Assembly (NCBI GenBank): GCA_016194905.1
Contig: JACQAP010000005.1
Location: 205,114-269,113 of the forward strand
Length of the DNA stretch: 64,000 bases
Direction: 5' to 3'
From: Betaproteobacteria bacterium
GTDB taxonomy: Bacteria > Pseudomonadota > Gammaproteobacteria > Burkholderiales > JACQAP01
The translations under genes were made by a program, and so were the position numbers. Below the pieces are notes generated by a model. It did not search any database. It worked only from the letters and a program-made list of their open reading frames with translations, and was not told where the DNA came from. Of the stretch, positions 36,799 to 56,104 are shown one piece after another; the first letter of the stretch is position 1; each line of letters starts with the position of its first letter.

Positions 36799-37169
36799 GC
36801 CCCTCCTGATTGACACACGAGTCCTGCGGAAGGGTGTGGGCGGTAATGAGCATTGGCTTGCTGCCTGACATCGAACATCGCCGACGCGCCCTCGCGTGCA
36901 TCCGCTCTGGATTGAGTCGTCAGGCCGTATGGTGTCTCTATGGTAAATCAGCAACAAAGGGAAACTCCAGGAAATGCGACCCAATGTGCACTATTCATCG
37001 TTGCAATACCGGCCATTCCAAAAAAACAGTCCGTCGTTTGCAAAAAAAAGAGGGGCGGAGACCTGAAACCACCGCAGTTGCGGCAATGGTCGCAATGAAT
37101 GCGCCATTGAAAATGAATCTGCGGGAACCGGATTGCTTGCGAGCGGCAGCATTCGCGTCCAACTCTGTC

Positions 37170-37560
37170 AGAGGATCGTGCTTGGATGTGTCTGCAGGAC
37201 GACGCCGACGTAGCGCGCCTTGAACCCGGCTATTGGCACGATCGCAAGCGCATCAGTTTTGCCCGAAGAAGACCATGCGGTCTTCTTCGACGCGCGATAT
37301 AAAAGGCGAGCCGCAGGCCGGGATACCCCCGGGTCCAGGGAGGCAAGACTTGCGCGGAAGCACCGCGACCTTGGTGCGGCTCGCGAACCGGTTAAGCAGT
37401 ACGACAAAGGCGCCGTCAGCGCTGTCCAGCCAGCGCGCTGACCGATCATTTCGGCCTGCGTGCGCAGCTGCGTCGAATTCGTATGGGGGATGAAAGCTGG
37501 CCGGTTGCCAGCCCCTTATCGAAGGGAACACCGCCGTACCGGTAGAGCACTCACACCGGC
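37170..37560 (-). pseudogene. Decayed N-terminal (C39-like domain) fragment of a T1SS ABC transporter gene
   Basis: Split over two frames. PPYEFDAAAHAGRNDRSARW, AFVVLL, SPFISRVEEDRMVFFGQ and ALAIVPIAGFKARYVGVVLQ parallel PPYDFESVARAAGSLGLRAGW, PFVVLL, LAFVLRLEEDRVAFFEQG and HTILPLAEFELRYAGRVLQ of ORF 55236..55967. Confidence 0.55.
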
Positions 37561-37764
37561 AACTGATGAACGAGCACATACTTCCGCGCCCAACCCTCCT
37601 TCTGCTGCAGCCGTCCCGCGGAAAGCGGCTGCACCGCTCGCGGACCCAATTGCAGTCTCCCTTTTTATTTCATACCATTTCTGTTTTTATATGCTGGACG
37701 CATGTGCTCGCCATCTTTGTTTTTAACTTTATCTTGTATTTTGCTTTCTACGGCATCTGGAAAA

Positions 37765-37782
37765 TTTGTCAAATCTGACAAA
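37765..37782. promoter_or_regulatory. Conserved palindrome TTTGTCA-N4-TGACAAA upstream of the T1SS ABC remnant
   Basis: Perfect 7-4-7 palindrome within the block ttacggcatctggaaaatttgtcaa.tctgacaa, which is also found at 56070..56105. Confidence 0.3.
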
Positions 37783-43199: not shown

Positions 43200-43405
43200 T
43201 CACGACAGGCGGATCTGCCCTTGTTGAAGCTCAGCGAGCGTGCGCAGTGTCTGCGCGCTGCTGCCGAATTGCGCGGAATTGATGACGTCCTGCGCCGGCG
43301 TGAGTCCGATTCCGGTCAACGGTCCGCTCTTGCCGTATTGATAGGCCAGATCGCCGCCAAGGGCCGCCGTGTCGCTGCCCGACAGATGCGCGCCCTCTGT
43401 CGCTA
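43200..43405 (-). pseudogene. Probable C-terminal remnant of the T1SS ABC transporter ATPase
   Basis: The last ~65 codons of ORF 43200..43466 (GAHLSGSDTAALGGDLAYQYGKSGPLTGIG...FGSSAQTLRTLAELQQGQ) loosely fit the AHRLS...D.I.V...G....G end of T1SS ABC ATPases. Stop is 20 nt before hlyD. Upstream codons are AT-rich junk. Confidence 0.4.
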
Positions 43406-43431
43406 CAAATAGTCTATACCAGAGGGAAAAT

Positions 43432-43953
43432 TCACTTTTTCTTCTTGAGGTCGAAAAAATAGACATATTCTTTGGTCCAATCTGGCCGCAGGAAGATCAC
43501 GCGGCCTTCTTCCAGCGTCATAGCGCCACGGCATACAGCGCGACAAACTGACGCCTCTAGCTGATCCTTGAACTTCGCCGCCCACTGCCCATTACGCGGC
43601 TCTGGCCACAGATTGCGATGGTCGGTAGGGTGCCCGCCGAGGCATAGCGGGACCAAATGATCCTCTTCGTAGTCCGACGCTTTGCTGGATAGGCGCATTT
43701 CGCGCATCTGCTGCGCCTTCAGCCGGTTAGTGTATGAAGTCGGCGGCCGGACGGTGGCCGTCCAGCCGGGAACGCATATGGTCTGAGCAATATTGTCTGC
43801 CGTGACGTATTGACTGATGGCGCCTGGCGTTCGATCGCGATCCGGAACAAAGAATGCGGGCCCATGAGAATCGAGTTCGCTCTGGTCCGCAGAAGCGAAC
43901 TCCATCGCTGCAATGCACAGCAACCCAAGAAATCGACCCTGTGGCATTCGCAT
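43432..43953 (-). CDS. Secreted HNH-type nuclease-like protein
   Basis: Signal peptide MRMPQGRFLGLLCIAAMEFASA. HNH-like core EEDHLVPLCLGGHPTDHRNLWPEP. Confidence 0.6.
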   Translation of the reverse strand: MRMPQGRFLGLLCIAAMEFASADQSELDSHGPAFFVPDRDRTPGAISQYVTADNIAQTICVPGWTATVRPPTSYTNRLKAQQMREMRLSSKASDYEEDHLVPLCLGGHPTDHRNLWPEPRNGQWAAKFKDQLEASVCRAVCRGAMTLEEGRVIFLRPDWTKEYVYFFDLKKKK

Positions 43954-43986
43954 ATCATACTGAAGCCCAACGTTCAGGGATTTGCC

Positions 43987-44262
43987 ATGTCCGAAGCCAT
44001 AGCCCGATTCGCCGCCTTCCTGCAGTTATCAGACGACATGCTCATCCGTGCGGAGTGCGAGGATCTTGAGGAGTGCGTGAGGATTCTGGCAGTCCAGTGC
44101 GCTCACTATCAATCGAAGTTCGGGAAATTGCCGATGTCGGACACGCTTGAAGTCCTCTCAAGCGAGACGATGAATGACGAGCAAGCCAAGTGGATCGGGG
44201 ACGGTCTGGAAATGGTAGTTGGCGTTCTGGGGATGCTGGAGCAGGAGCATGCAAAGCATTAG
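43987..44262 (+). CDS. Small hypothetical acidic protein
   Basis: 91-aa ORF from the internal ATG of 43810..44262. No recognisable family or strong RBS. Confidence 0.3.
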   Translation: MSEAIARFAAFLQLSDDMLIRAECEDLEECVRILAVQCAHYQSKFGKLPMSDTLEVLSSETMNDEQAKWIGDGLEMVVGVLGMLEQEHAKH

Positions 44263-44780
44263 GCTGCTTCATGAAGTCACTGTTATGGCGAGATGCCTAA
44301 GTCATGTTGATATCGATTTTCTGAATGCCTGTTTTCGACCTATTCTGTTGAAAAACTCCAATTTGCATGCACCCGGAATTATTGCGAGAGTGCATTGCAA
44401 TTGACAATTCATTCGACGAATCGTCGAAGCGTTTGTTAGAAGGCTCGTGGTCGCGCGCAGCAGTAGATCGCATGCCCCCCACGTCCGAGAAGGACCGACG
44501 CCCCTGCGGGCCTGAAATTTTTCGGGTAGCTCCTGAAAAGGTGTTTTTCAACAGATATAGACCCTAAGCTGCCGGTCAGGTGTTCGGAAAGCAGCCGTTC
44601 AACGTACTGCGCGTAGTCGGCTCGCAAACGGCAAGCGAAGCGCCGCTGTTCGCGAGTCCGTGCTGACGCGCAGGTTAGAGGGCATGGTTTCTTTGAGAGC
44701 GATGTGCCGGCCAGACACGCATCGACCCCTCCCCGGCTTCGTCCCGTCGTGACTTGCCTGGAGCGTTATTGTCGTATCGA

Positions 44781-44868
44781 TGATGACCAATCATCTTCAC
44801 CTCGCCTTGCAGATGGGCGATGTGAACTCTCGGCGGGCATGCAGAACCTGTCGTTTCGATATACCCGC
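44781..44868 (+). pseudogene. Internal fragment of a RAYT/IS200-like transposase gene
   Basis: Hand alignment to 50282..50370 of the intact gene (HUH region SNHLHLALQ.GD...SAGMQNLSFRYTR): about nine mismatches and one 1-nt indel. Confidence 0.75.
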
Positions 44869-44913
44869 CGTGTCCTATCCGTGATCAAGTGGTGCAGTTA
44901 AATGCTGAATCCA

Positions 44914-47868
44914 CTACCCTTGAATTGAAGGCTCCCTTGCGAGCTTCATGCGAAGCAGGTCCATTGCGCCGTTCTTAGCTAACAGAGCGAAGTCAACTCC
45001 CAAGACCTCCCGGGTAAAACGCTGATCGAGTTCTTTACGCACGTCGTCTACATCCATTTCATTTATGGGACGCAACGCTTTATCGCGCATCTGATCAAAA
45101 ATATTAACGGCGGCGGAAAGCTGCTTCGCGTTCAGCTTGGTGACATCAAGGATGACGAAATCTTCAAGCGCCGATTTACCAATGTTTCCTCTGCCCGCTT
45201 GCTGCTTGTTTGCCTGCCACCAATGCAAGAGCAGTCCGAGCGACGTGTTCGCCCATAGCACGAGTGCTTTCTCATGGTCTTCAGACGCCATCTGTATGGA
45301 GGCCCAAGCACGGCCGCCGATACTGCGCCTCGGCGTGAACTGCATCCCTGTGGATTGGCTGTTGAATCGAAAGTTGATGTTGAAGTGACAATGTGAAGCG
45401 GTCGCAGCCACTCGCGGAATTCTTTCTGCCACCAAATCTTCCTCCGCTGGGGTTGCGCCCATGCGAGCAATGCCTTCGCTATCCGCATCAAACGCCATAG
45501 TTCGCTCACGCGCAGCATCGTGTGACCACAATACGGGATAGGTTGGCACCGCCCCTGGAGTTACTGGCGACACCGTGAATGGCCCACGAACACCACCGGA
45601 TGAAGTAGATCCTTCAATATCACTGTGATAGGGGCCGATTTTACCTACGGCCCCAACCGCTGCGATCGGGATGCCCAATGCTTGCGATTTCTGCATGCCC
45701 GGGAGCCAGACTTTCCCATTATTCCGCAACTGAAAAGCACTCTGCGCCAATGATAGATCGGCTACGCGCGACAGGTACCACCCGTCCGTTGCTGAGATGG
45801 GCGCATCCAACACATGGCCAATCACGTCGCTTCCAAACATAATTGCGGCGCCGCCGACTGGCCCATCTTCCAGACGTCTGAGGGCCTTCGTGTCAATTAA
45901 GCGTCTCACCTCGCGCGCGACACCAGCGCCAAGCATTGGAAACGCGGGGCGCTCCTTCAGAACGACAAAGGTAGCCCTATCGCTGGGTGTTCCTGACTTG
46001 CTCCCAACGACTAAGCATTCGCCCATTCCCGTGTCGGCCGAGAAAGACATGTCACCGCTGCCGCCGCCTGTGATGGAAACCAAAACCAAGTCGGTGTAGT
46101 TCTTCACCAAAAGTGCGCGCGACTTCTCCCAAGCCTCGCCAGACATAAGGCTCAGCGGCATTACCAATGCAAGGGTCCCGTTCTTCGTGAGTTTTCGATC
46201 TGCCAGTACAAGGAAGATCGACGCCTCGCCAGCATTGCCGTGCGCGCTGGTGCCATCAGTAAGGCGCTTGGTGGCAGCACCCATCAAGCGTTGTTCTTCC
46301 ACAGTTGAACTGAATGCCGCAAACATCGGATTAGGAACACCGATCTTTGAGCTTTCATGTCCTGTAGCGCGCGTAAATGGGGGATTCATAAAAACCATGT
46401 CGAATGAAGCGTGCGGAAGGTGCGACCAAATCTCCTTTTCCTTTTCGCCCATACCTTCGGCGGCATGGGCGGTGATGGCGAGAATGCCGAATGTTCGTTG
46501 CGGGTCAAGAAGATCCAGCGAACCAAGCGCAATACCGCCGTCCGGTTGCTTGCCATAGGCGACAGTCATGATCGAGCTTTGGGTGTATTTGACTGTCGGA
46601 TGTGCACCGGAAAGCATTGATGCGGTGAGGTGCGCTGCTGCTGGTAGGACATCACATCCGATCAGGCCATGCGCCATCATTTCAGGATGTAGTGCTTCCG
46701 AGTCCCCACCCGCCAACTCGTGCAATTGTCCGATGCGTTGATACGCAGTCGACAATAGGGTGCCCGTGCCACAGGCAAAGTCCGCAACTCGCAGCTTCTG
46801 AACATCCTTTGAGTTGGACCAAGAACCGCCTGACGCCGGTTTATTCGGTGCGATCGCCAATCCCACAAGGAGCGCAGCCGAAGCTGGTGTCGTGTAATAC
46901 GCGGCGAGGAATTTACGGTCGGCGATAAGTCGCTGGAACACTGACCCGGTCAGGTCATGCGACCGCATGAGCTGATTCTTGAGCAAATTGTCAGCCGTAA
47001 CCGCAAGACTCTCTATGATCGCCTTGCTGCTCGCGGCCGGTAGCACCTCAAGGATGCGGCGCGCGATGTCAAAGATGGGCCAATAATTGACCTTAAGAAT
47101 CTTGCGCCACTCAGCCAGGACTGAGGTTTTGGTGAGCGCTCCAGTCGTACCGCGCAGTTCATCTAACGATCTGACGCTGGCAAGTTCACCAGGCCCACCC
47201 GCTAAACTCTCCTGAAAAACGAAGGCATTGGCAAGGATGGTTGCCGCCATGCGACGGGTTTGCTCCGATTCTTCTTGCCGGAGCTCTTCACAAATCTTCT
47301 TGATTGCTCCCGATCCCGGCGGTGCGACTTCGCCAAGGAGACCGGCTACCTCGCTAACACCGCTCACGAGTTGGTCAGCCGCGGCGTCAATTACTTCTGG
47401 TGGAACCGAAGCCGACTGCACAAGTATTGAGACATCCGCCACCGTTCCACGTACCCACCCGGCGTGAGGATAGCGCGTGAAGTTGGATGAATCGCTGCCG
47501 GTGAAAAGCGCCATTTCCAGATCGTCGGCGTTTTCCAGTTCGGAAGCTAACTTCTTGCCAGATTTGGTTCGTAGCCGGAGCGGTAGGCGAATCGCCACTA
47601 CTGAAAGTATCGTGCGGCCCGTATGGCGCAGATGTTTTCCGAGCCTTGCTAGTGCGTCCGCCTCTACAGTTGGAGCAGGTAGTACCTCGGTTTCAACTAC
47701 TACCGGGGAAACGTTTGGTTCGATGACCAATATGTCTGGGCGCTCGCTGGTGCCCTTCAACATTCCTGTATTCTCGGAACTAACCACCTTGTCTGACCGC
47801 CACATTTGACGCTTAGTACGTAAGACTTCCGCGAGAGCGTCGTTGATGGTGTGTTCGGTCACCGGCAT
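44914..47868 (-). CDS. Large fused N6-adenine DNA methyltransferase / putative restriction enzyme (type IIG-like)
   Basis: 984 aa. SAM motif I VADFACGTGTLL and catalytic motif IV MNPPFTRA. The N-terminal ~130 aa carry a PD-(D/E)xK-like string RPDILVIEP..PVVVETEV. Long C-terminal region consistent with a target-recognition domain. Confidence 0.75.
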   Translation of the reverse strand: MPVTEHTINDALAEVLRTKRQMWRSDKVVSSENTGMLKGTSERPDILVIEPNVSPVVVETEVLPAPTVEADALARLGKHLRHTGRTILSVVAIRLPLRLRTKSGKKLASELENADDLEMALFTGSDSSNFTRYPHAGWVRGTVADVSILVQSASVPPEVIDAAADQLVSGVSEVAGLLGEVAPPGSGAIKKICEELRQEESEQTRRMAATILANAFVFQESLAGGPGELASVRSLDELRGTTGALTKTSVLAEWRKILKVNYWPIFDIARRILEVLPAASSKAIIESLAVTADNLLKNQLMRSHDLTGSVFQRLIADRKFLAAYYTTPASAALLVGLAIAPNKPASGGSWSNSKDVQKLRVADFACGTGTLLSTAYQRIGQLHELAGGDSEALHPEMMAHGLIGCDVLPAAAHLTASMLSGAHPTVKYTQSSIMTVAYGKQPDGGIALGSLDLLDPQRTFGILAITAHAAEGMGEKEKEIWSHLPHASFDMVFMNPPFTRATGHESSKIGVPNPMFAAFSSTVEEQRLMGAATKRLTDGTSAHGNAGEASIFLVLADRKLTKNGTLALVMPLSLMSGEAWEKSRALLVKNYTDLVLVSITGGGSGDMSFSADTGMGECLVVGSKSGTPSDRATFVVLKERPAFPMLGAGVAREVRRLIDTKALRRLEDGPVGGAAIMFGSDVIGHVLDAPISATDGWYLSRVADLSLAQSAFQLRNNGKVWLPGMQKSQALGIPIAAVGAVGKIGPYHSDIEGSTSSGGVRGPFTVSPVTPGAVPTYPVLWSHDAARERTMAFDADSEGIARMGATPAEEDLVAERIPRVAATASHCHFNINFRFNSQSTGMQFTPRRSIGGRAWASIQMASEDHEKALVLWANTSLGLLLHWWQANKQQAGRGNIGKSALEDFVILDVTKLNAKQLSAAVNIFDQMRDKALRPINEMDVDDVRKELDQRFTREVLGVDFALLAKNGAMDLLRMKLAREPSIQG

Positions 47869-48141
47869 ACGCGAGATATTACCGGCAACATCACCAGTCG
47901 GGGAAAAATAATGGAGTACAAGACAAACCTTATTGAATTCCTCTCAAAGGAGGAAAACAACCTGCTAACAACCATCGTGAATTGTCGGAGCGACCTTGAC
48001 GCGTTTTCTCGGATTGACGGAATATTTCAAGCGCCATTTGAGCGCATCGACGTAAAAGCAACCGATAACTATAGCCGCATGTTGGTTGGCCTCTGTGCAT
48101 CCTGTGGCTAGGTTAGCGATGGCACTGGGGCGGTGACAGCC

Positions 48142-48714
48142 TCACACCGGGAGCAATGCGTTGGCTGACTTGAACGCGGCCTCGAACATGTCGAGGGTAG
48201 CTGCCAAATACTTGCCCAGAAGTTCAAGCGTAAGCTGTTTTAATGCCTGCCCCTTGATATCGGATGGAAGGTCAAAGCTCTCCACGAGGTTCTTTGCAAG
48301 TGTGGCCTCGACGACTGGAACACTGACATAGAGATAGCAACCATTTGCGCTTTTTGAATAGCTCTTGGAAAGGACAATCTCAGGTTTTGAAAGGACATTG
48401 CTTCCGAACTTTTCTTTTATTGCATTGAGTTCAGCCTCGTCTAGCGCAAAAGTTGCCTCGATAACTTTGGCGTGCATCCGCCGCTTCGTCTCGATGTCCT
48501 GCTGGTAGTTCTCCACTTCAGACCTTGGATAGTCATCTGTTACGTCAAAGTTTCCGTCGCTAGCAACAATGGGATTGAGCCGATACAGGGCTTGCAAGAT
48601 AGCCGTCTTGCCCGCTTCATTCTTACCTACCAGACACGCAACCCGATCCACCTCAAACGGATTCGAGTCCCACACAGACTTGAATTCCCGAACATGAACC
48701 CCGCGCAATTTCAT
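48142..48714 (-). pseudogene. N-terminal fragment of an ABC/OLD-type P-loop ATPase (truncated)
   Basis: 190 aa with Walker A LVGKNEAGKTAILQAL but no Walker B or signature motif. Relatives that I recall are several hundred residues longer. GGGAGG before the ATG. Confidence 0.55.
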
Positions 48715-48825
48715 CTAAACCTCCCGTGCTAGCTCATGCTCATTTGGACGCTAAAGCTACTTTCCAATGAATTGCAATAGTGCATACGTTTCTATGACTT
48801 TACAAAGTTGACATCCACACTCTTG

Positions 48826-50034
48826 TCATGCGCGCCGGCTTGTGCGATGAGCTGTTTCTTCCGACTCTTCAGCAACTTTTCGGAAGGGGTGTGGAATTGA
48901 CTTCTCTGGTTCTTTAGTTGCATTACGCAGGTAATCGGTTACGCTCTTGCGCAATCTAGGGGCCCACTCTGGCTCACGAATATCGTAAATGATTACCCTG
49001 AGATGCCTAAGGTCGAAAGGGACGTCGCCAACCTCGGAAGCTGTGAAGACAACTGGCTTACGTGCCGCATGAGCTAAACCAAGTTCGTAGAAGACATTCG
49101 GATTCTTTCCAGATAGATCTGCTAGCAATAGTTTCGATTTCTCAATCTGCTCCCAAATCTGTTCAACCACACTGCCAGTTGTAAATAGCTCATCGGCGCG
49201 TACCGGTTCGAATCCCGCTTCCTTGATGGCAGGCATATAGATTTCTTGATAATAGCGATCAAACCACGCGCCGAAGGGCATCATTACAAAACAGGTGTCC
49301 AAGAACTCTCGCACGCGAGGCTCCTTGGAAACTATCGGACTCGGTACCTTTTCCGGCGGAGTCGGAGTAATTGCGGTGTCCGCCGAACCGGCTCTTTGGT
49401 CAGACGGCACAGTCGTCGGAGTAAAAGCTCGGAGAAATTTGAGGTTTTCGAGAAAAATTTTGGCGAACTGCTCTACGCGATCACGAGGAATATTAAACTC
49501 TCGAGTAAGTGTATTGAGAAAGAACTCGTCCTCAGGTATGCGCTTACCACTATAGAATTTCTCAACCCCTTCGAAATCCTTCACGTTTCGAAAGACTCGT
49601 AGGAGTGCCTCAGACCGCTGACTGGGCGAACTTGGAGCAACGACATCTTGGCCTAACTGCGAGAGATGAATCGTTCCGGTAGCGCCAGTACCCGTGACTA
49701 AACCATATTGGTTGGCGGAGCGAAGGAGATCGAGAAATCTCCAATCAGACGATTGGCGAAAACCTACGGCGACCGCGATTTCCTGTGCAGGCATTGGATT
49801 ACCCGCGTTCTTCTCCTCGATCGCTTTAGCAAGTGCAATAGCATCTTCAAGACTATTTTTTGGAAAAGTCCAGGGCTTTCCCTTGGCAGTAGTCAACAAC
49901 TCCGCGGCTTTTTTCTGCTTCCCTTTCTTAGCTTTCTTCTTGGTTTTCTTTTTTGGGAGATCAGCCTTTTTCGGGACATCACCCTTTTTTAAGGCATCGG
50001 CCTTTGGCTTGGTTGTTTCCTTATCTTCTGCCAT
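48826..50034 (-). CDS. Lys-rich N-terminal tail + helical (wHTH-like) region + nucleoside 2-deoxyribosyltransferase-like (TIR/SLOG-related Rossmannoid) domain protein
   Basis: 402 aa. N-terminus KKADLPKKKTKKKAKKGKQKK. C-terminus CFVMMPFG...YQEIYMPAIKEAGFEPVRAD...LLLADLSGKNPNVFYELGLAHAARKPVVF matches the pattern I associate with Nuc_deoxyribosyltransferase-like domains. AAGGAG RBS. Confidence 0.6.
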   Translation of the reverse strand: MAEDKETTKPKADALKKGDVPKKADLPKKKTKKKAKKGKQKKAAELLTTAKGKPWTFPKNSLEDAIALAKAIEEKNAGNPMPAQEIAVAVGFRQSSDWRFLDLLRSANQYGLVTGTGATGTIHLSQLGQDVVAPSSPSQRSEALLRVFRNVKDFEGVEKFYSGKRIPEDEFFLNTLTREFNIPRDRVEQFAKIFLENLKFLRAFTPTTVPSDQRAGSADTAITPTPPEKVPSPIVSKEPRVREFLDTCFVMMPFGAWFDRYYQEIYMPAIKEAGFEPVRADELFTTGSVVEQIWEQIEKSKLLLADLSGKNPNVFYELGLAHAARKPVVFTASEVGDVPFDLRHLRVIIYDIREPEWAPRLRKSVTDYLRNATKEPEKSIPHPFRKVAEESEETAHRTSRRA

Positions 50035-50077
50035 TCTCGAACTCCTTTGGGTGACTTTTAGTGCGTCCAGGGTCAGG

Positions 50078-51126
50078 CCTGCATAATTGGATAATCTTCA
50101 TGTATCCTCCGTCCTATGGCTCGCAAACCCCGCCTGCACGTTCCCGGTGGTCTGTATCACGTCATCTTACGCGGCAACGCCGGGCAGGATGTGTTCTTCT
50201 CTGCGGGTGACCGGCGCTTCTTCTATGAATTGCTCGCCGAAGGCGTAGTCCGCTTCGGCTACCGGGTGCACGCCTTCTGCCTGATGAGCAATCATCTCCA
50301 CCTCGCTTTGCAGGTGGGCGATCTTGCACTGTCGGCGGGCATGCAGAACCTGTCGTTTCGCTACACCCGCTATCTCAATACGCGACTCAAGCGGTCAGGA
50401 CATGTATTCCAGGGACGCTTCAAGGCTTTCCTGGTGGATCAGGATCGCTATGGGTTGGCATTGGTGCGCTATCTCCATTTGAATGCGGTGCGCGCGAGAA
50501 TGGTCAGGCAACCCCGTGCCTACGCCTGGAGCAGTCACCGCGCTTACCTCGGCGAAGAGGACTTGCCCTGGCTCACGACGGATTGGGTGCTGGGACAATT
50601 CGGCGAACGGGTCGAGCCGGCCCGGCAGCGCTTTGCCGCCTTTGTCGACGCCGGTGCTCGCGACGGCCATTCGGAGGTGTTCTACGGCGGGCAGGCGGAT
50701 GGCCGGGTGGTCGGGGAGGAAGCTTTCCTGAAGAAGGTGCTGAAGGTGCTCCCCAAGCGAGAAGCGAAGCGCAAAGCCCCATCGCTCAGGCAGATCGTGG
50801 CCTATGTGTGCGACGGTTACGGACTCACGGAAGGGGCGCTCAAGGCGCCGGGCAAGGGCCGGCAAACGGCGCAGGCGCGCGCACTCATCGGCTGGCTTGC
50901 GGTCCGGTTTCGTTCGTGCACGCTTGCAGAAGTCGCCGAGCATTTCTCGCGCTCCCCTTCCACGCTAAGCCATCTTGTCGCCAACCTGGAGAAGCTTTCG
51001 CACAGTTCCGGCCAACCCGCCGATGCGCTGCGAAAACATCTATTCACACTGCAGGTCTGACATCCTTTTACTTTTCTTTCTTTTACTGAGGCCTAGATCT
51101 CACTTCCGTTTATGCAATTATGCAGG
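50078..51126 (+). mobile_element. RAYT unit: Y1 transposase gene bracketed by a 17-bp imperfect inverted repeat
   Basis: cctgcataattgGataa (50078..50094) is the reverse complement of ttatGcaattatgcagg (51110..51126) with 16/17 matching. Confidence 0.55.
50116..51060 (+). CDS. REP-associated tyrosine transposase-like protein (IS200/IS605 Y1 HUH family) with C-terminal DnaA-C-like HTH
   Basis: LYHVILRGN, HUH motif SNHLHLAL, RYLHLNAVRARMV. C-terminal RALIGWLAVRFRSCTLAEVAEHFSRSPSTLSH resembles the DnaA domain IV-like HTH seen in this transposase family. Confidence 0.8.
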   Translation: MARKPRLHVPGGLYHVILRGNAGQDVFFSAGDRRFFYELLAEGVVRFGYRVHAFCLMSNHLHLALQVGDLALSAGMQNLSFRYTRYLNTRLKRSGHVFQGRFKAFLVDQDRYGLALVRYLHLNAVRARMVRQPRAYAWSSHRAYLGEEDLPWLTTDWVLGQFGERVEPARQRFAAFVDAGARDGHSEVFYGGQADGRVVGEEAFLKKVLKVLPKREAKRKAPSLRQIVAYVCDGYGLTEGALKAPGKGRQTAQARALIGWLAVRFRSCTLAEVAEHFSRSPSTLSHLVANLEKLSHSSGQPADALRKHLFTLQV

Positions 51127-51182
51127 TCCATTTACTCTCCGCGTTGGTTCCCCTATCACTTTGCGGATGGTGAACCAGCTTT

Positions 51183-52598
51183 TTAGCGGTGCCCCCTGTC
51201 GTACACCGAAAAGACGTCCGCCACTGGACTGACTCCTGCCTCGCCTTCGACGGTGCAGCGATACACGCCGGCGGGCAACGGGGGTACCTCGGCGCGCAGC
51301 CATCCTTCCTTACTCGGCGGAAATGCGATACGTGCCACTTCGGCGCCAGAATCGGCCTCGACGACCGTCGCATAAAGCGCCGGCGAAGCCGCGGAGTCGG
51401 CCAGAACACGTAACGACACCGACTCGTCATTCCAGTATGCATCCTCCAGGTGCAGTGCGACCTTGACCGGGCCAGCCGATATCGCCCGGTATTGCCACGA
51501 CGACAGATCGAGATCGAGCGCCGTGATCGCATCGCACACGTGGTGCTGGACGGCGGAGGCGTTCTGCAACGAGGCATGGCAGGTCGAGACATAGGCCTCG
51601 CGGCCCGCATTGGATAGCTCGACCGGCGTAGCGGAGATTCGCGGCACCGTGCCGTCGCCTCCGAGGTCGTGCCCCGCATGCTCGCTGGCGAACTCGATGT
51701 TTTCGCCACCGGTCATGCGCGCCGATTGGAGCGTTTCCTGATGCGTCCCGACCACCGGAATTACGCGATAACGCCCACGGCGATAGATGTCGTCGTCGAG
51801 ATGACGATCGATGGCCTGTCGGATTTCGGCGTGGAAATCGCGGGCGCCGAGCACCTTCCCGGCTTCGACATGGGCGATCGCGGGGCCATCGCTCAGATGT
51901 ACGAGTTGACCGTCGACTGTCTGCAGACAGGGATAGGTGGGCAGCAATTGATAGACTGAGGGGAGCGAGCGCACAAACGCCGACAGATCGACAATGCCGA
52001 AAGGTCCCTTGCGGATGCCCTCGACCAGCGTGCGCAGCGCATTGACCGAGCCGCGAAAGGGCGTGCCGAAGGTGACGAGCGCCTTTGCATCCGGCCAGCC
52101 CTCAAGCGCTTCGAGGAAGTAGCGGGCAACGAGCCCGCCCATCGAATGCGCAACGATGATGAGCTTCGCCCCGTTGTTACCGGAAGATTCGCGCCAGCGT
52201 CGGAGCCACTCCCGGCTCACGCGCTGGAGCTGCTTCGCCGCGACGCGGTTATCACGCCGCCAATCGTACGGGAACTCGAAGTAGTTGACACCGTGCTCGA
52301 CATCGAAGGTGCGACGGAGCGACTCGGTCAAGCTCGAGTACCCGTCGATCTTCCACAGATACGGGATCAGGTGGAGATCGGGCAGGATGCGTGTGGCTTC
52401 GACATCGTCGACGCGCTGTTCTGGGTCGGACGAATCCGCGGTGAGACGGAGCGCGCCGATGCTGTCACCGAGCGTGGTCAAGGCGTGCAATCCCGCGCCG
52501 GCAGAAAATCCCCACGCGTCACGGCCCTGCCGCTTCAATTCGCTGCCGAGGATCCCGGGTATCACCACCAGCACATCGGGCATCGGCTTTCGGATCAT
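51183..52598 (-). CDS. LCAT/PGAP1-like alpha/beta hydrolase (putative lipase/esterase) with C-terminal beta-rich domain
   Basis: 471 aa. N-terminal VVIPGILGSEL, YDWRRD, nucleophile elbow IVAHSMGGLVARYF. 38 nt downstream of the cyclase-caspase gene on the same strand. Confidence 0.7.
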   Translation of the reverse strand: MIRKPMPDVLVVIPGILGSELKRQGRDAWGFSAGAGLHALTTLGDSIGALRLTADSSDPEQRVDDVEATRILPDLHLIPYLWKIDGYSSLTESLRRTFDVEHGVNYFEFPYDWRRDNRVAAKQLQRVSREWLRRWRESSGNNGAKLIIVAHSMGGLVARYFLEALEGWPDAKALVTFGTPFRGSVNALRTLVEGIRKGPFGIVDLSAFVRSLPSVYQLLPTYPCLQTVDGQLVHLSDGPAIAHVEAGKVLGARDFHAEIRQAIDRHLDDDIYRRGRYRVIPVVGTHQETLQSARMTGGENIEFASEHAGHDLGGDGTVPRISATPVELSNAGREAYVSTCHASLQNASAVQHHVCDAITALDLDLSSWQYRAISAGPVKVALHLEDAYWNDESVSLRVLADSAASPALYATVVEADSGAEVARIAFPPSKEGWLRAEVPPLPAGVYRCTVEGEAGVSPVADVFSVYDRGHR

Positions 52599-52635
52599 CG
52601 GGACAGCCGCGCCAGCGTGAATGGAGATCGCGCGC

Positions 52636-54657
52636 TTACGCTTGCGCTCGCGGCGGAAGAAACAGGAACTCGCCCTCGCCGTCGAGCTTGGCGTATTGAG
52701 GCGTCTGCCGGTTGTCGGATTCCGCCAGCACGCGCTTCAGGATGTAATCCGCGAGCTTGAGCGCAGTTAACCCGGCGCCGTCGGGGTCCGCGAAGCCCTC
52801 GAGGCCTTTCAGGAAACTTCGCGTGAAAATGCCGTGGCCGCCATCCTCGACCGCTTTCTGGTTCCCTGTGCCTGCGGTGAGGAGTTGCACCACTGGTTCC
52901 TGGGTCAGCCCGGTCAGGTCCATCTCCACACCGGACGGGGCGGCGTCGCGCTTCGCCGCATAACCGGAGAAACAGCTGTCGAGCACGAACAGGATGTGCT
53001 TGGCCGGCAGGCTCTTTCCGTGACGCACGAAATCCACCATCGGCAGGGAGCTCAGCGGAAGATTGGCCGGATCCGCGTCATAGGGCAGAAGGTAACCTTC
53101 CTCTCCTTTGCGGTGCTTCAGGACCTGGCCGTGCAGCGCGAAGAATACCAGCAGCCGGTCCTCTCGTTGCGTGGTCTCGACCTTGCCGAGGATCGAGCGC
53201 AAGATCCCATCTTTGGTCGCCTTTTCGTTGACGAGGAGTTCGATGCGCTCCGCGGGAAAACCCGCTCTGGGGAGGGCTTCCGCCACCGCCTCGGCGTCGG
53301 CGACCGCATAGCTCAACCGGGCCACGGATGGCGATTGGTAGGTGTCGACGCCGACCACGATCGCCCATGAATTCTGGTAGTAGGCGCCCAAGCCCTTGGC
53401 AACGTCGGGATGCGTCTTCCGGCTCTTCACGGTGACGACGGCCTCGCCTGCAGCCGGCCGCAATCGGCGCACGTGATAGCGCTTGTATACGACGCCCATC
53501 GGCTGATCGGACTTGCGCATGTCGTACGTCTGCGGATCGTCGACTTCGGCGACAATGTCGCGTGCCACGTAGTACGTGTTCTGGTCGACCAGGATCCGTT
53601 TACCGCCGCGCGCGTCCTGCTCGAACGCCGCGGCCAGGTTCACCACATTGCCGAGCGCTGTGAAGTCCTTGATCTGCCCTCCGCCAATGGACCCGATGAT
53701 CACGTCGCCGGTCGCGATTCCAAAGCCAATGTCGAGAAAGCCCAGATCCTCGTTGCGTTTGCGGTTCCACTGGTTGCGCAGGTCCACGAACCCCGCGATG
53801 ATGCTGAAGGCGCAGCGCAGCGACCGCTCCTCCGTGCCGGTCTTGCCGCGGAACAGCGCCAATACCCCGTCGCCGAGGAACTTGTTGACGAACCCGTCGA
53901 ATTTGACTACCTGCGCCGCCAGCAACGTCAGGAACTCGTTCAAGTGCCCCGCTATTTCCTTCGGATCACCGAGCGTCTGACTCAACCGGCTGAATCCCCG
54001 CATGTCGGCGAACATCACCGTCATGCGCTCGTGATGCGCCGGGGCGGCGAGCTCGCCAAGCAGATCGCCGGTCTTGCGCCTGTGGGCTGCGGACGTAAAT
54101 AGGCCCTTGTGCGCGAGCAGATCGCGAATGTGGCGCGCATTGCGAATCGCGATGGCAGCGTGGCCGGCGAAATGCTCCAGTAGGCGCAAGTCGCGCGAGG
54201 TGTAGTCGCCCGACGCCTTGTTTAGAAGCTGGACGACGCCGCTCCGAAGTGACTCGATGGCAAGCGGCACGCAGATCATCGATTTGGTGCTGTAATTGGT
54301 CTGCTGATCGACGCCTTTGAAATGGTCCGTCCCCCTCACCACGGAGCGCTCGATCAGCGATTCGCCGGTCTTGTACACGCGGCCCGCAATGGAACCCATC
54401 GGGACACGGTCAGGGCCGAATTCGCCGAATTGCGTGAGCACGTCCTGCGCCTTGGGACCGGTTGCGGCGGCGAAATACATGCCATCGCGCTCGGCGTCAT
54501 GGAGTATGACGGAGCCGGACTCCGAGCTGGTCAGGTTTCCCGCTCGGGTTAGGATCGCCGCGACCAGATCGCCGTAGTCGATCTCGGAACTCAGCTCACG
54601 GGCGTTCTCGACCAGGGAGAGCAGGTCGGACCGGCTGAGCTCGTCATCGTCTGCCAT
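52636..54657 (-). CDS. GAF domain - class III nucleotide cyclase - caspase-like (peptidase C14) fusion protein
   Basis: 673 aa. GAF-like aa ~15-175. Cyclase aa ~210-385 (MTVMFADMRGFS, KFLGDGVLALF, GIATGDVIIGSIGG, GNVVNLAA). Caspase-like aa ~425-660 (WAIVVGVDTY, FFALHG, FVLDSCFSG). Confidence 0.8.
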   Translation of the reverse strand: MADDDELSRSDLLSLVENARELSSEIDYGDLVAAILTRAGNLTSSESGSVILHDAERDGMYFAAATGPKAQDVLTQFGEFGPDRVPMGSIAGRVYKTGESLIERSVVRGTDHFKGVDQQTNYSTKSMICVPLAIESLRSGVVQLLNKASGDYTSRDLRLLEHFAGHAAIAIRNARHIRDLLAHKGLFTSAAHRRKTGDLLGELAAPAHHERMTVMFADMRGFSRLSQTLGDPKEIAGHLNEFLTLLAAQVVKFDGFVNKFLGDGVLALFRGKTGTEERSLRCAFSIIAGFVDLRNQWNRKRNEDLGFLDIGFGIATGDVIIGSIGGGQIKDFTALGNVVNLAAAFEQDARGGKRILVDQNTYYVARDIVAEVDDPQTYDMRKSDQPMGVVYKRYHVRRLRPAAGEAVVTVKSRKTHPDVAKGLGAYYQNSWAIVVGVDTYQSPSVARLSYAVADAEAVAEALPRAGFPAERIELLVNEKATKDGILRSILGKVETTQREDRLLVFFALHGQVLKHRKGEEGYLLPYDADPANLPLSSLPMVDFVRHGKSLPAKHILFVLDSCFSGYAAKRDAAPSGVEMDLTGLTQEPVVQLLTAGTGNQKAVEDGGHGIFTRSFLKGLEGFADPDGAGLTALKLADYILKRVLAESDNRQTPQYAKLDGEGEFLFLPPRAQA

Positions 54658-55096
54658 GAAGGGCCGCCCAGAGTGTGTTGTGTACCACGAGGGTCTTCAT
54701 TGTTGATAATGCCCATGACGATGTCGAATTACAAGGGAGCGTCTTAGGGCGCCAGGCTCAACTAATCATAAATCGAGCGTGCCCCCCCCTTTCCCCTTCC
54801 TGAGCAAAGGGGAACGGTGGAGGGGAACGGGGTCTACCGTTTGAATTGTGCGGCAGACGGTATTGTGTCGGAGGCGTAGGAAGATACATGCAACGGGAAC
54901 GGTCGAGTTTTTTCGGTCGCTACGATATTACGCCAGCATCCTGCAGTCGACAATTCTGCAGGAAGGTCTCTCAGAGAGAGCCAGGCTAATGAGTCTGGGG
55001 ATATGACCGTAAAGTTGCGTGCCCTCTAAGGATTGTCGAATCCCCCCTGAGCTACTACTATTTTCTATTCTCCACGCCCCCTGCCTTTCTTTAACT

Positions 55097-55258
55097 ATGG
55101 CTAAACCCCTCACGGATAAGCAACGGAAGGAAAAGATCGAGAGTGCGCTCAGGAGCTTTAGGGGCGACTTCAACGACTACGAGCGAGCAGCGTTGAACCT
55201 AAGCAACGACGACCTTGTAGCTCCGGCCGCTGCGCTTAACCTGATGCGGCCAGATTAA
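55097..55258 (+). CDS. Very small hypothetical protein
   Basis: 53-aa ORF (MAKPLTDKQRKEKIESALRSF...) in the island-junction region. No support beyond the ORF itself. Confidence 0.2.
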   Translation: MAKPLTDKQRKEKIESALRSFRGDFNDYERAALNLSNDDLVAPAAALNLMRPD

Positions 55259-55294
55259 CCTTCACTGAAACACGCGATGAATCTTGCGTGTTTT

Positions 55295-55967
55295 CGATCA
55301 CGACCTTGGTGAACAACGGCGTGGCCAGCGCCATGAGCTGGATGGCAAGCGACGCCATGAGGACGTCGCGGAATACCTTGCGGTGCTTGAGAAGTTCGGG
55401 GATGAACCAGCCGAATCCGAAATGGGTGCCCGCAGCGGATTTCGCATCCGGATCCGCCAGAGGTTCATTTTTGGGCGCCGCCTGCAGGACCCTGCCCGCG
55501 TAACGCAACTCGAACTCGGCAAGCGGCAGGATGGTGTGACCGGCCGTGCCTTGTTCGAAGAAGGCGACGCGGTCTTCTTCGAGGCGCAATACAAAGGCGA
55601 GCCGCGGGACCGGCGCCTCCGGGTCTAGGGAGGGAAGACTTTGGCGGTCGACGCCGAGCCCCTGTTGATGCGGCTCGCTTATAACCGGAGCTAGCAGCAC
55701 GACAAATGGCGCTGAAAGTTTCTTCAGCCTTGAAACCGGCGGCGCCTTCCAGCCCGCGCGCAAGCCGAGCGATCCGGCTGCGCGCGCGACTGACTCGAAA
55801 TCGTAGGGGGGCGAAAGCTGCCCGGTTACCAGCTTCTCGTCAAAAGGAAGTCGAAAGTACTGGCTGAGCACGGACAGCACCCATACCAGCGTCTCATGGT
55901 CAAACGCATCGCTTCGCGCCCGTCTCCCCTGTTCGGCGGGAAGCAACTGCACCACTTGCGGACCCAA
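55295..55967 (-). pseudogene. N-terminal ~225 codons of a T1SS ABC transporter (C39-like domain + first TM helix), truncated
   Basis: FGFGWFIPELLKHRKVFRDVLMASLAIQLMALATPLFTKVVI matches the start of the HlyB-type TM domain. Homology stops there and the frame runs into unrelated sequence (ENTQDSSRVSVKVNLAASG stop). Confidence 0.75.
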
Positions 55968-56088
55968 TCCCCGATTCCTTTTCTTTTTCTTAGCGTCATG
56001 TTCTGTTTATTTTTTATGACAAGCGCCTGTGCTTGCGCCTTGACCAACGTCTTCTACACATCATGCTTTTTACGGCATCTGGAAAATT

Positions 56089-56104
56089 TGTCAATTCTGA
56101 CAAT
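56089..56104. promoter_or_regulatory. Conserved palindrome TTGTCA-N4-TGACAA upstream of the truncated T1SS ABC gene
   Basis: Perfect 6-4-6 palindrome about 120 nt upstream of the ATG at 55967. The same block occurs at 37749..37785. Confidence 0.3.

What the first reader, a model, noticed from the sequence alone, without database searches (positions are those of the whole stretch)
43405..55295. About 11.9 kb mosaic island replaces the core of a type I secretion ABC transporter gene, leaving hlyD orphaned
Seen: ORF 55236..55967 (minus) encodes the C39-like domain and first TM helix of a HlyB-type exporter, and homology stops abruptly near 55295. At 43200..43405 the last ~65 codons before hlyD loosely resemble the C-terminal end of such an ATPase; this part of the call is weaker. 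The TM and ATPase core in between, several hundred codons by my recollection of HlyB-type exporter length, is missing. In its place are unrelated genes: an HNH nuclease, a type IIG-like enzyme, a truncated ATPase, an NDT-like protein, a RAYT, and the lipase with the cyclase-caspase. Part of the segment (about 43.4-50.1 kb) is visibly AT-richer than the flanks, while 51.2-54.7 kb is not, so at least two modules of different origin are joined. hlyD (41818..43179) looks intact. Inference: this is a hotspot where defence-like cargo was inserted and the target gene partly deleted. An intact hlyD suggests a recent event or use of hlyD with another exporter.
Basis: partly seen in the sequence, partly recalled or inferred. 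Interest (0 to 1): 0.7.

Follow-up and report, generated by a model that had tools for sequence, protein, structure and literature searches.

The report
Decayed secretion operon patched with cargo
An uncultured betaproteobacterium has lost most of a protein-secretion operon, and the two gaps, one on each side of a resident transposase-like gene, are filled with portable, mostly defence-type genes; this is ordinary genome decay, apart from a small hairpin insertion at one break.

Summary
The 5' fragment of a HlyB-type type I secretion (T1SS) ABC gene is real: 55294-55967, minus strand, about 225 of 721 codons. hlyD (41818-43179) is full length.

The supposed ATPase C-terminal remnant is something else. 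Bases 43200-43391 are the last 63 codons of a giant RTX adhesin, the T1SS substrate. In at least 25 related loci that gene ends directly upstream of hlyD.

The "11.9 kb island" is not one insertion. A RAYT gene with flanking inverted repeats (50070-51126) sits at the same place in relatives. The variable DNA lies on both sides of it.
- **Segment A (43.4-50.07 kb):** low GC. It holds solitary foreign genes and replaces the RTX gene body.
- **Segment B (51.13-55.2 kb):** host-like GC. It holds a portable two-gene cassette (GAF-cyclase-caspase plus LCAT-like lipase) found elsewhere in other genomes. It replaces the ABC core.

The ABC break is a 76-nt two-hairpin insertion, which I call J1 (55218-55293). 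ABC sequence resumes for 12 nt after it and then stops. The same insertion at the same site occurs in a divergent ABC lineage, and three different rearrangement endpoints lie within 21 nt of it.

Verdict: a decayed T1SS locus in a plastic region. The kind is known. The insertion is the only unusual part.

The parts
55294..55967 (-). 5' fragment of a HlyB-type T1SS ABC gene: C39-like domain plus the first membrane helix, about 225 codons. The open frame runs on to a stop at 55236.
   Evidence: TIGR01846 E 2e-14. HlyB PDB 8dck E 3.2e-10. tblastn with the L005 ABC, residues 1-218, 62% identity, E 3e-80. 84% nt identity to L048 and L052.
55218..55293 (-). J1: a 76-nt insertion with two hairpins (AAACACGC..GCGTGTTT and GGTTAATCTG..CAGGTTAAGC) and the tail GCGGCCGGAGCTA. 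It interrupts the ABC gene between ..ATCGA and CAAGG.., with no target duplication.
   Evidence: The same element sits at the same ABC position in L054-L058, L061 and L062. Stems are conserved while the loops vary, and the only paired changes are wobble changes. The covariance model finds only this copy and one in L132. No Rfam match.
55206..55217 (-). 12 nt of ABC sequence (CAAGGTCGTCGT, codons for K-V-V-V) that resume after J1. The second breakpoint follows directly.
   Evidence: 12 of 12 identical to L005, L052 and L014 immediately after the insertion site.
54739..55205 (.). 467 nt of unassigned DNA between J1 and the cassette. It holds only short ORFs, one of them 55097-55258 on the plus strand.
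   Evidence: No homology to any fetched locus. No Pfam hit for the small ORF.
51178..54738 (-). Portable two-gene cassette: GAF-class III cyclase-caspase (52636-54657) and LCAT-like lipase (51183-52598), with its own upstream region.
   Evidence: Pfam hits. 82% and 78% nt identity over exactly this span to L130 (between mutS and DUF4397) and L131 (between ligD/ku and DUF72). The ends are abrupt and carry no repeats. GC3 is 0.75-0.81.
50070..51126 (+). Resident RAYT unit: gene 50116-51060 (Y1 HUH transposase domain plus a DnaA-C-like HTH) flanked by inverted repeats at 50070-50094 and 51110-51126. The right repeat has lost its outer 9 nt.
   Evidence: PF01797 at 38.5 bits. NF047646 E 1e-14, below its cut-off. 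HUH and Y motifs are visible in the translation. Inverted repeat found. The same unit, with a 26-nt repeat, is present in L010 (80% aa), L014 (74%) and L045, and the flanks diverge exactly at the repeat ends.
48826..50034 (-). 402-aa protein with a C-terminal TIR/NDT-like domain. Foreign composition, GC3 0.47.
   Evidence: PADLOC PDLC00733 'TIR effector' E 3.7e-10. phrog_3634 E 6e-28. Pfam NDT at 17.6 bits, below its cut-off.
48142..48714 (-). Truncated AAA_15 / GajA-OLD-type ATPase. Only the N-terminal part is present (190 aa).
   Evidence: AAA_15 residues 1-77 on profile positions 1-68 of 374. GajA PDLC00090 on positions 1-100 of 659.
44913..47868 (-). 984-aa solitary gene with a weak Eco57I-type methyltransferase signature. 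It belongs to a very widespread, highly conserved family.
   Evidence: More than 4000 homologues at 67-85% identity, including one annotated to Candidatus Uhrbacteria; the 100% match is NCBI MAG Betaproteobacteria HY067_02425. In L128 and L129 homology is limited to the ORF, and the surrounding genes are unrelated. Pfam and PADLOC hits are sub-threshold.
44781..44868 (+). 89-nt fragment of a RAYT gene (the HUH-motif region), 89% identical to 50282-50370.
43432..43953 (-). 173-aa ORF with a signal-peptide-like N-terminus and a D-H..N motif. The HNH call is unconfirmed.
   Evidence: No Pfam, NCBIfam, PADLOC, PHROG or PDB hit. 40% identical homologues lie near hlyD fragments in L045 and L048.
43200..43391 (-). 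Last 63 codons plus the stop codon of a giant RTX adhesin gene, the T1SS substrate. It is embedded in an 88-codon ORF (43200-43466).
   Evidence: tblastn with the L014 2282-aa RTX protein, residues 2203-2282, E 4e-19. That protein carries 13 HemolysinCabind repeats plus cadherin and Big_9 domains. The same domain ends 20-60 nt upstream of hlyD in at least 25 loci. DNA homology ends at 43390-43392.
41818..43179 (-). Full-length hlyD (T1SS membrane-fusion adaptor), 453 aa, with a ribosome-binding site 20 nt after the RTX stop codon.
   Evidence: TIGR01843 at 315.7 bits. 91% aa identity to L001. dN/dS 0.07-0.13. Sequence read.
37115..37782 (-). A second, frameshifted remnant of a HlyB-type ABC 5' end (C39-like domain), downstream of hlyD.
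   Evidence: tblastn E 2e-7 in broken frames. 67% nt identity to L048. The position corresponds to the second ABC gene of L053.

Best explanation
**What it is.** This is a decayed RTX-type type I secretion locus in a plastic chromosomal region of an uncultured betaproteobacterium.

**Ancestral order (inferred from relatives).** deoC | hlyB-like ABC - a few ORFs - resident RAYT with flanking inverted repeats - (ORFs) - giant RTX adhesin - hlyD.

**What remains here.** Only three relics survive:
- the first ~225 codons of the ABC gene;
- the last 63 codons of the RTX gene;
- an intact hlyD.

**The two replacements.** Two separate stretches, one on each side of the retained RAYT unit, were replaced.
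- Segment A (43392-50069) replaces the RTX gene body. It holds low-GC foreign genes that occur as solitary, self-contained modules elsewhere.
- Segment B (51127-55205) replaces the ABC core and the genes downstream of it. It holds a portable cyclase-caspase + lipase cassette of host-like composition.

**The ABC break.** The ABC gene was first interrupted by a 76-nt two-hairpin element (J1). The remaining ABC sequence was then lost from a point 12 nt beyond J1.

**Consequence.** With no pump and no substrate, the secretion system is dead. hlyD is most likely a relic that has not yet decayed.

**Shown versus inferred.**
- Shown: the identity of the relics, the module boundaries, the synteny of the RAYT, and the portability of the cargo modules.
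- Inferred: the order of events, and the idea that hairpin-forming repeats (the RAYT repeat ends and J1) are where illegitimate recombination or exchange happens.
For: **Relics**
- ABC fragment.
- RTX tail.
- hlyD.

**Intact or differently arranged relatives**
- L005 has ABC and hlyD adjacent.
- L014 has deoC..ABC..RAYT-hlyD..RTX.
- L010 has RAYT..RTX-hlyD.
- L064 and L065 have ABC-RAYT-hlyD.
- deoC-ABC synteny holds, with DeoC 94.6% identical in L052.

**RAYT unit**
- Homology runs from 50070 to 51072. The 26-nt inverted repeat is conserved, and the flanks diverge exactly outside it in four lineages.
- The literature describes RAYTs as single-copy, vertically inherited genes (PMC5581495).

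**Composition**
- Segment A is foreign and segment B is host-like.

**Portability of the cargo**
- The 984-aa gene.
- The two-gene cassette.

**J1**
- Insertion, then ABC resuming for 12 nt.
- Endpoints at +12, about +17 and +21 nt after J1 in different lineages.

**Not an assembly artefact**
- One 16.5 kb Logan contig spans from the ABC fragment to hlyD. A second run gives the same order.

**No other exporter**
- No other HlyB-type exporter lies in the 64 kb. The ABC genes at 15-17 kb are Liv-type importers.
Against: - No single relative shows the full inferred ancestral order. It is pieced together from L005, L010 and L014, which differ among themselves.
- The closest relatives by ABC sequence (L048-L052) are themselves broken, in a different way.
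- The ABC fragment is still an open frame. Its dN/dS (0.19-0.27) is no higher than between intact genes (0.20), so decay is not demonstrated by sequence.
- hlyD shows strong purifying selection in all comparisons.
- No recombinase or mechanism for cargo arrival was identified. The RAYT repeats and J1 do not resemble each other.
Confidence: 0.72

Rival explanations
1. One ~11.9 kb mosaic island was inserted into the ABC gene and deleted its core. This left the ABC N-terminus at one end and the ABC C-terminus next to hlyD at the other.
For: The ABC 5' fragment and its abrupt end are real. Relatives with ABC directly next to hlyD exist (L005).
Against: The segment next to hlyD is the RTX substrate C-terminus, not ABC. 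The RAYT in the middle is syntenic in relatives, and breakpoints lie at its repeat ends. There are no island hallmarks: no integrase, tRNA or direct repeats.
Confidence: 0.05
2. J1 is a small non-autonomous mobile element of the hairpin-ended kind, like the miniature derivatives of IS200/IS605 or REPINs that HUH tyrosine transposases move. It would insert site-specifically after ..ATCGA in this ABC gene and promote adjacent rearrangements, making it the driver of cargo turnover at this end.
For: - It is a discrete 76-nt insertion with no target duplication and two conserved hairpins. The first stem also pairs with the last 7 nt of the target.
- The same insertion site occurs on two ABC backgrounds that are only 70% identical. 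Each background also has close relatives that lack J1 (84% and 93% identical; 1000 of 1000 bootstraps).
- Three different downstream junctions lie within 21 nt of its 3' end.
- A related copy lies in an unrelated context, downstream of rpoD.
- A RAYT gene lies 4 kb away.
Against: - Only one copy occurs in 64 kb, and none in ~720 kb of related loci besides the junction copies and L132.
- L132 shares only the right half.
- There is no similarity to the RAYT's own flanking repeats.
- No compensatory base changes were seen.
- Shared ancestry plus recombination within the ABC fragment could also give the pattern.
Confidence: 0.2
3. The relics are still in use. The 243-aa C39-like-domain protein and HlyD would work with a T1SS pump encoded elsewhere, so hlyD is not an orphan pseudogene-in-waiting.
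For: - hlyD is full length, has a good ribosome-binding site, and has dN/dS 0.07-0.13.
- The ABC fragment is an uninterrupted ORF here and in L054-L058, with dN/dS 0.19-0.27, as for intact genes.
- Many relatives keep the 5' ABC part in several different truncated forms.
Against: - All HlyB domains are needed for secretion (PMC11026475).
- The J1 copies in L061 and L062 carry a frameshift in the fragment.
- In relatives, hlyD itself is cut down to its last 41-100 codons (L045, L057) or lacks its membrane anchor (the J2 loci).
- Pairwise dN/dS over dS of 0.4-1.3 cannot detect recent loss of constraint.
Confidence: 0.12
4. The arrangement is an assembly or binning chimera.
For: The source is a metagenome-assembled genome. 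The composition changes sharply at 50.07 kb.
Against: Two independent Logan assemblies of two sequencing runs reproduce the order. One 16.5 kb contig spans from the ABC fragment through both segments to hlyD.
Confidence: 0.02

Closest known systems
RTX-type type I secretion operons (E. coli hlyCABD, Bordetella cyaABDE; HlyB pump with a C39-like domain, HlyD adaptor, RTX substrate with a C-terminal signal)
   Same: The ABC fragment matches HlyB and TIGR01846. The adaptor is a full TIGR01843 HlyD. The remnant upstream of hlyD is the conserved C-terminal end of RTX adhesins that carry nonapeptide repeats in relatives.
   Different: The pump lacks five of its six membrane helices and the whole ATPase. 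The substrate is reduced to 63 codons. In relatives the gene order is ABC ... RTX-hlyD with a RAYT gene inside the locus, unlike hlyCABD.
Defence islands and variable-region hotspots in bacterial chromosomes
   Same: Self-contained, mostly defence-type genes of foreign composition are packed between conserved anchors. The content differs between close relatives, and some of the genes are truncated.
   Different: No complete known defence system is present. One of the two segments has host-like composition. The anchors are remnants of a destroyed operon and a resident RAYT rather than intact core genes.
RAYT genes with flanking REP/REPIN repeats (PMC3116915, PMC3337134, PMC5581495)
   Same: It has a Y1 HUH transposase domain with HUH and Tyr motifs. 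It is present once, flanked by inverted repeats, and kept in the same position in related genomes.
   Different: No dispersed copies of its flanking repeat were seen in 64 kb or in the related loci. It scores below the NCBIfam cut-off for REP-associated transposases. It carries a C-terminal DnaA-C-like HTH. It sits inside a secretion operon.
Miniature hairpin-ended elements mobilised by HUH transposases (IS200/IS605 derivatives, REPINs)
   Same: J1 is small (76 nt), has two hairpins, leaves no target duplication, and lies at an identical site in divergent lineages.
   Different: Its copy number is very low. The two hairpins are not inverted copies of one repeat. No cognate transposase was identified, and transposition was not shown.
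Cyclase-based conflict systems (Pycsar-type cyclases; GAF-cyclase proteins fused to TIR or caspase effectors)
   Same: The cyclase domain hits PycC profiles at E 1e-19. Relatives swap the caspase for TIR. The gene travels with a lipase as a two-gene cassette.
   Different: There is no effector with a cyclic-nucleotide-binding domain. The cyclase carries GAF and caspase domains in one chain. A defence role was not tested.

Membership tests
HlyB-type T1SS ABC exporter (TIGR01846) | N-terminal C39-like domain | tested here: met
   Residues 106-226 align to profile positions 58-168 at E 2e-14. 62-79% identity to the N-termini of relatives' ABC genes.
HlyB-type T1SS ABC exporter (TIGR01846) | Six-helix membrane domain (ABC_membrane) | tested here: not met
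   Only the first helix is present. In the intact L005 protein ABC_membrane spans residues 195-462, and the window ends at about 225. The score of 52.8 bits is far below the cut-off of 725.
HlyB-type T1SS ABC exporter (TIGR01846) | ATP-binding cassette (Walker A/B, signature motif) | tested here: not met
   No ABC_tran match anywhere in 43-56 kb. tblastn at E 10 finds only Liv-type importers at 15 kb.
HlyD-family T1SS adaptor (TIGR01843) | Full-length match above the curated cut-off, including the N-terminal membrane anchor | tested here: met
   315.7 bits against 208.65, covering profile 8-421 of 422. Residues 1-453 align to L001, L002, L005 and L010.
RTX T1SS substrate | Ca-binding nonapeptide repeats | tested here: not met
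   The window has none. Repeats are present only in relatives: L014 has 13 HemolysinCabind stretches and L010 has 19.
RTX T1SS substrate | Conserved C-terminal end directly upstream of the adaptor gene | tested here: met
   53-85% identity over 62 residues in at least 25 loci, ending 20-60 nt before hlyD.
RAYT (REP-associated tyrosine transposase) | Y1 HUH transposase domain with HUH and catalytic Tyr motifs | tested here: met
   PF01797 at 38.5 bits against a cut-off of 23. NHLHL and Y..LN motifs are visible in the translation. NF047646 scores 54.7 bits, below its cut-off of 80.
RAYT (REP-associated tyrosine transposase) | Flanked by inverted palindromic repeats | tested here: met
   A 17-25 nt inverted repeat at 50070-50094 and 51110-51126. 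A 26-nt repeat in L010, L014 and L045.
RAYT (REP-associated tyrosine transposase) | Many dispersed REP/REPIN copies of the flanking repeat in the genome | tested here: inconclusive
   No further copies occur in the 64 kb window or the related loci. The rest of the genome was not available.
RAYT (REP-associated tyrosine transposase) | Single copy, vertically inherited position | tested here: met
   Same side and orientation relative to hlyD in L010 (80% aa), L014 (74%) and L045. dN/dS 0.13-0.15. An 89-nt fragment of a second copy exists at 44781-44868.
Integrated genomic island (site-specific) | Integrase or recombinase, tRNA or other att target, flanking direct repeats | tested here: not met
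   No tRNA in the window. No flanking direct repeats. No integrase among the ORFs.
Gabija (GajA/GajB) | Full-length GajA ATPase-Toprim plus a GajB helicase | tested here: not met
   Only positions 1-100 of 659 of GajA are matched, in a 190-aa ORF. There is no GajB.
Type IIG restriction-modification enzyme | Methyltransferase motifs plus a nuclease domain in one chain | tested here: inconclusive
   Eco57I scores 18.3 bits against a cut-off of 25.3. PADLOC MTase_II gives 2.5e-9 and REase_MTase_IIG gives 2.5e-4. No nuclease domain was found and there is no PDB match.
Pycsar | Cyclase plus an effector with a cyclic-nucleotide-binding domain | tested here: not met
   PycC profiles hit the cyclase domain at 1.2e-19. 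The partner is an LCAT-like lipase with no such domain.
IS200/IS605-type miniature element (for J1) | Subterminal hairpins, no target duplication, fixed target sequence, multiple copies, cognate Y1 transposase | tested here: inconclusive
   The hairpins, the lack of duplication and the identical site in two lineages are met. Multiple copies are not met: only L132 besides the junction copies. Whether the RAYT acts on J1 was not testable.

The most novel reading that the evidence does not exclude
The 76-nt two-hairpin element J1 may be a new kind of small site-specific insertion, possibly moved by an HUH tyrosine transposase such as the neighbouring RAYT. It would have hit the same nucleotide of this secretion-pump gene independently in divergent lineages. 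Its 3' end would act as a recombination hot spot where different cargo is joined, since three distinct junctions lie within 21 nt of it. If so, a tiny structured element, not a classical integrase, would drive gene replacement at this locus.
Probability: 0.15. Interest if true: 0.6.

Novelty: new member of a known kind. Interest (0 to 1): 0.35.

Why it matters
- **For annotation.** hlyD here should not be read as evidence of a working secretion system. The small ORF upstream of it is a substrate-gene tail, not a pump remnant.
- **For genome evolution.** The locus shows that what looks like a single island can be two independent replacements around a conserved transposase-like anchor. It also shows that the same secretion operon has been broken in at least five different ways in related uncultured Burkholderiales.
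- **Beyond routine decay.** The hairpin insertion recurs at an identical site, with rearrangement endpoints clustered beside it. Breakpoints also coincide with the ends of the RAYT repeats. If either reflects a mechanism, it would link hairpin elements to cargo turnover.

Tried and rejected
1. **ABC C-terminus at 43200-43466.** tblastn with two intact ABC proteins at E 10 gave nothing there, and Pfam and NCBIfam gave nothing. Rejected.
2. **Island hallmarks.** No tRNA. No flanking direct or inverted repeats spanning the region.
3. **J1 as a known RNA.** No Rfam hit at E 1 in 43-56.2 kb, and none for the L132 copy.
4. **J1 as a dispersed repeat.**
   - Pattern searches of the window with 3 mismatches found one copy.
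   - The covariance model over 720 kb found only L132.
   - A loose hairpin pattern in viral contigs gave chance hits except L132.
   - Plasmid blastn gave nothing significant.
5. **J1 as coding.** The plus-strand ORF through it is not conserved upstream, and the frames differ between loci.
6. **Recombination explaining J1 on two backgrounds.** Sliding identity shows the window stays closer to the L048 type right up to the junction.
7. **dN/dS as a test of pseudogenisation.** Not decisive.
8. **Solved-structure searches** for the 984-aa, 173-aa and 402-aa proteins found no useful match.
9. **A 3' remainder of the truncated ATPase** downstream of the 984-aa gene was not found.
10. **Terminal repeats at the cassette ends.** None.

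Full report
**Source and reality of the sequence**

The 984-aa protein of the region is 100% identical to a protein of an NCBI metagenome-assembled Betaproteobacteria genome (locus tag HY067_02425, 384 kb contig). Two independent Logan assemblies of two sequencing runs reproduce the gene order. One 16.5 kb contig runs from the ABC fragment through all the cargo to hlyD. The arrangement is therefore not an assembly chimera.

**The ABC fragment**

ORF 55236..55967 (minus strand) has no Pfam hit. It does match the type I secretion (T1SS) pump model TIGR01846 at E 2e-14, profile positions 58-168 of 694. It also matches solved HlyB at E 3.2e-10.

I used HlyD as a probe on one genome per species and recovered 45 related loci, all from uncultured Burkholderiales or Betaproteobacteria. 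L005 carries an intact 721-aa ABC gene directly upstream of hlyD. Its residues 1-218 align to 55967..55290 at 62% identity, E 3e-80. Nothing of residues 219-721 is found near the region. In the intact protein the membrane domain spans residues 195-462 and the ATPase spans 525-673. About 495 codons are therefore missing.

**The remnant next to hlyD**

The 88-codon ORF 43200..43466 shows no similarity to ABC proteins at any threshold. It matches the last 80 residues of a 2282-aa protein of L014 at 56% identity, E 4e-19. That protein carries 13 RTX nonapeptide stretches plus cadherin-like and Ig-like domains.

The same C-terminal motif (AHLSGSDTxALGGDLAYQYG...LQQGQxRL) ends 20-60 nt upstream of hlyD in at least 25 of the related loci. 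DNA homology stops at 43390-43392. A 40-nt AT-rich spacer and the stop codon of the 173-aa ORF follow.

The relic is the tail of the secretion substrate gene, so that gene was destroyed along with the pump gene. hlyD itself is full length, has a ribosome-binding site 20 nt after the RTX stop, and has dN/dS of 0.07-0.13 against relatives.

**The RAYT is resident**

The RAYT gene (50116..51060) is flanked by inverted repeats at 50070-50094 and 51110-51126. L010, L014 and L045 carry the same unit with a 26-nt repeat (GGGGTCAGGCCTGCATAATTGCATAA). It lies on the same side of hlyD and in the same orientation, at 74-87% protein identity. In every case the similarity to the window ends exactly at the outer ends of the repeats. 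In the window the outer 9 nt of the right repeat have been replaced.

More distant loci (L064, L065, L068) also have a RAYT-like gene between the ABC gene and hlyD or the RTX gene. This fits the published picture of RAYTs as single-copy, vertically inherited genes (PMC5581495). The 11.9 kb is therefore two variable stretches around a conserved anchor.

**Segment A (43392-50069)**

GC is 0.49-0.57 and GC3 is 0.47-0.63, against 0.74-0.83 for core genes. The segment holds:
- **A 173-aa ORF.** It has no profile match. Homologues at 40% identity lie near hlyD fragments in L045 and L048.
- **An 89-nt RAYT gene fragment**.
- **A 984-aa gene with sub-threshold Eco57I-type methyltransferase hits**. It has more than 4000 homologues at 67-85% identity, including one annotated to Candidatus Uhrbacteria. 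In L128 and L129 it sits alone in unrelated contexts, and DNA similarity is limited to the ORF.
- **A 190-aa N-terminal stump of a GajA/OLD-type ATPase**.
- **A 402-aa protein with a TIR/NDT-like domain**.

In L010 the corresponding interval holds three other ORFs and the RTX gene.

**Segment B (51127-55205)**

Its composition is host-like. Its core, 51178-54738, is a two-gene cassette: a GAF-cyclase-caspase gene plus an LCAT-like lipase gene. The cassette recurs at 82% and 78% nt identity in L130, between mutS and a DUF4397 gene, and in L131, between ligD/ku and a DUF72 gene. Its ends are abrupt and carry no repeats. Relatives of the first gene swap the caspase for TIR. In L014 the corresponding interval holds the ABC core and three other ORFs.

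**The junction at the ABC gene**

A metagenome scan with the ABC fragment gave the closest relatives. Seven loci (L054-L058, L061, L062) share with the window about 85 nt beyond the point where ABC similarity stops.

Closer reading shows a discrete 76-nt insertion (55293..55218). It lies between ..ATCGA and CAAGGTCGTCGT. After it the ABC sequence resumes:
- for 12 nt in the window, 12 of 12 identical to intact genes;
- for about 17 nt in L057;
- for 21 nt in L055, L056, L058, L061 and L062.

Unrelated DNA follows in each case. In L057 that DNA is an HsdM fragment. In L062 it is the tail of an IS3-type transposase.

The element has two hairpins. The stems are conserved while the loops vary in sequence and length, and only wobble changes are seen. 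It has no Rfam match. The only other copy found is downstream of rpoD in an IMG/VR contig.

The window's ABC fragment is 84% identical to L048, which lacks the element, and only 70% identical to L057, which has it. L013 lacks the element and is 93% identical to L057 (1000 of 1000 bootstraps). No recombination tract is visible next to the junction. Either the element entered the same site twice, or one old insertion has been shuffled by recombination.

**Other ways the locus is broken in relatives**

| Loci | State |
|---|---|
| L013, L048-L051, L063, L081 | ABC residue ~297 joined to HlyD residue 64 in a different frame; this removes the adaptor's membrane anchor |
| L039 | A similar join at other positions |
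| L059 | ABC stops at residue 133 |
| L042 | RAYT fragments lie between a truncated hlyD and half an ABC gene |
| L045 | Only the last 100 codons of hlyD are kept |
| L053 | The whole ABC-to-hlyD block is absent between deoC and the 525-aa membrane protein gene |

The window also has a second, frameshifted ABC 5' remnant at 37115-37782. Erosion of this secretion system is widespread in the clade.

**Function**

All HlyB domains are needed for secretion (PMC11026475). No other HlyB-type pump lies in the 64 kb. The system is most likely dead and hlyD is a relic.

dN/dS of the ABC fragment (0.19-0.27) is no higher than between intact genes (0.20). Recent loss and retained function therefore cannot be separated here.

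**Comparison with the known, and verdict**

The parts belong to known kinds:
- an RTX-type T1SS, now decayed;
- a RAYT with flanking repeats;
- a variable region with defence-type cargo.

No complete known defence system is present. The finding is a new member of a known kind. The one unusual feature is the hairpin insertion at a recurrent site, with rearrangement endpoints clustered beside it. I could describe it but not explain it.

Noticed in passing
window 37115-37782 (minus): A second, frameshifted remnant of a HlyB-type ABC 5' end (C39-like domain) lies in a low-GC, ORF-poor stretch at 35.3-38 kb. The position corresponds to the second ABC gene of L053.
   Followed up: partly
L013 9145-11173; L048 302-2363; also L049, L050, L051, L063, L081: A recurrent deletion allele joins ABC residue ~297 to HlyD residue 64 at the same nucleotide, in a different frame. 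It occurs on two backgrounds only 70% identical, and both truncated ORFs are still open. Whether this is recurrence or ancient polymorphism is unexplained.
   Followed up: partly
window 51178-54738; L130 9920-13484; L131 10007-13479: GAF-cyclase-caspase plus a 471-aa LCAT-like lipase form a conserved two-gene cassette found at three unrelated chromosomal sites. A larger family replaces the caspase with TIR. This is a candidate conflict or defence system.
   Followed up: partly
window 44913-47868; L128, L129: The ~986-aa family has more than 4000 members at 67-70% identity, including one annotated to Candidatus Uhrbacteria. Where checked (L128, L129) it is a solitary gene with homology limited to the ORF. 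Its function is unknown beyond a weak Eco57I-type methyltransferase signature.
   Followed up: partly
L132 2060-2145: The only other copy of the J1 hairpin module lies directly after the rpoD stop codon and upstream of a tRNA gene, in a contig classed as viral.
   Followed up: partly
L001 5465-5578; L048 5039-5324: A duplicated hlyD 3' fragment lies about 3-4 kb downstream of hlyD. In L048 a galactose-oxidase-like gene sits between the two copies, and a homologue of the 173-aa ORF follows.
   Followed up: no
window 50116-51060: The RAYT carries a C-terminal DnaA-C-like helix-turn-helix (29.4 bits, just below the Pfam cut-off). RAYT-like genes sit between the ABC gene and hlyD even in distant relatives (L064, L068).
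   Followed up: partly
window 32214-32873 (+): An IS1595-family (ISXO2-like) transposase gene lies about 9 kb downstream of hlyD.
   Followed up: no
window 38148-38738 (minus): A staphylococcal-nuclease-like protein with a signal peptide lies between the 253-aa ORF and the second ABC remnant.
   Followed up: no
window 55290-56575 versus L052: Synonymous divergence of the ABC fragment from L052 (dS 0.42) is about twice that of the adjacent deoC (dS 0.22). This hints at a different history for the two neighbouring genes.
   Followed up: no
window 43392-43431: The 40-nt AT-rich spacer at the left breakpoint contains a 7-bp inverted repeat (CCCTCTG..CAGAGGG). This junction could therefore also form a hairpin.
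   Followed up: no
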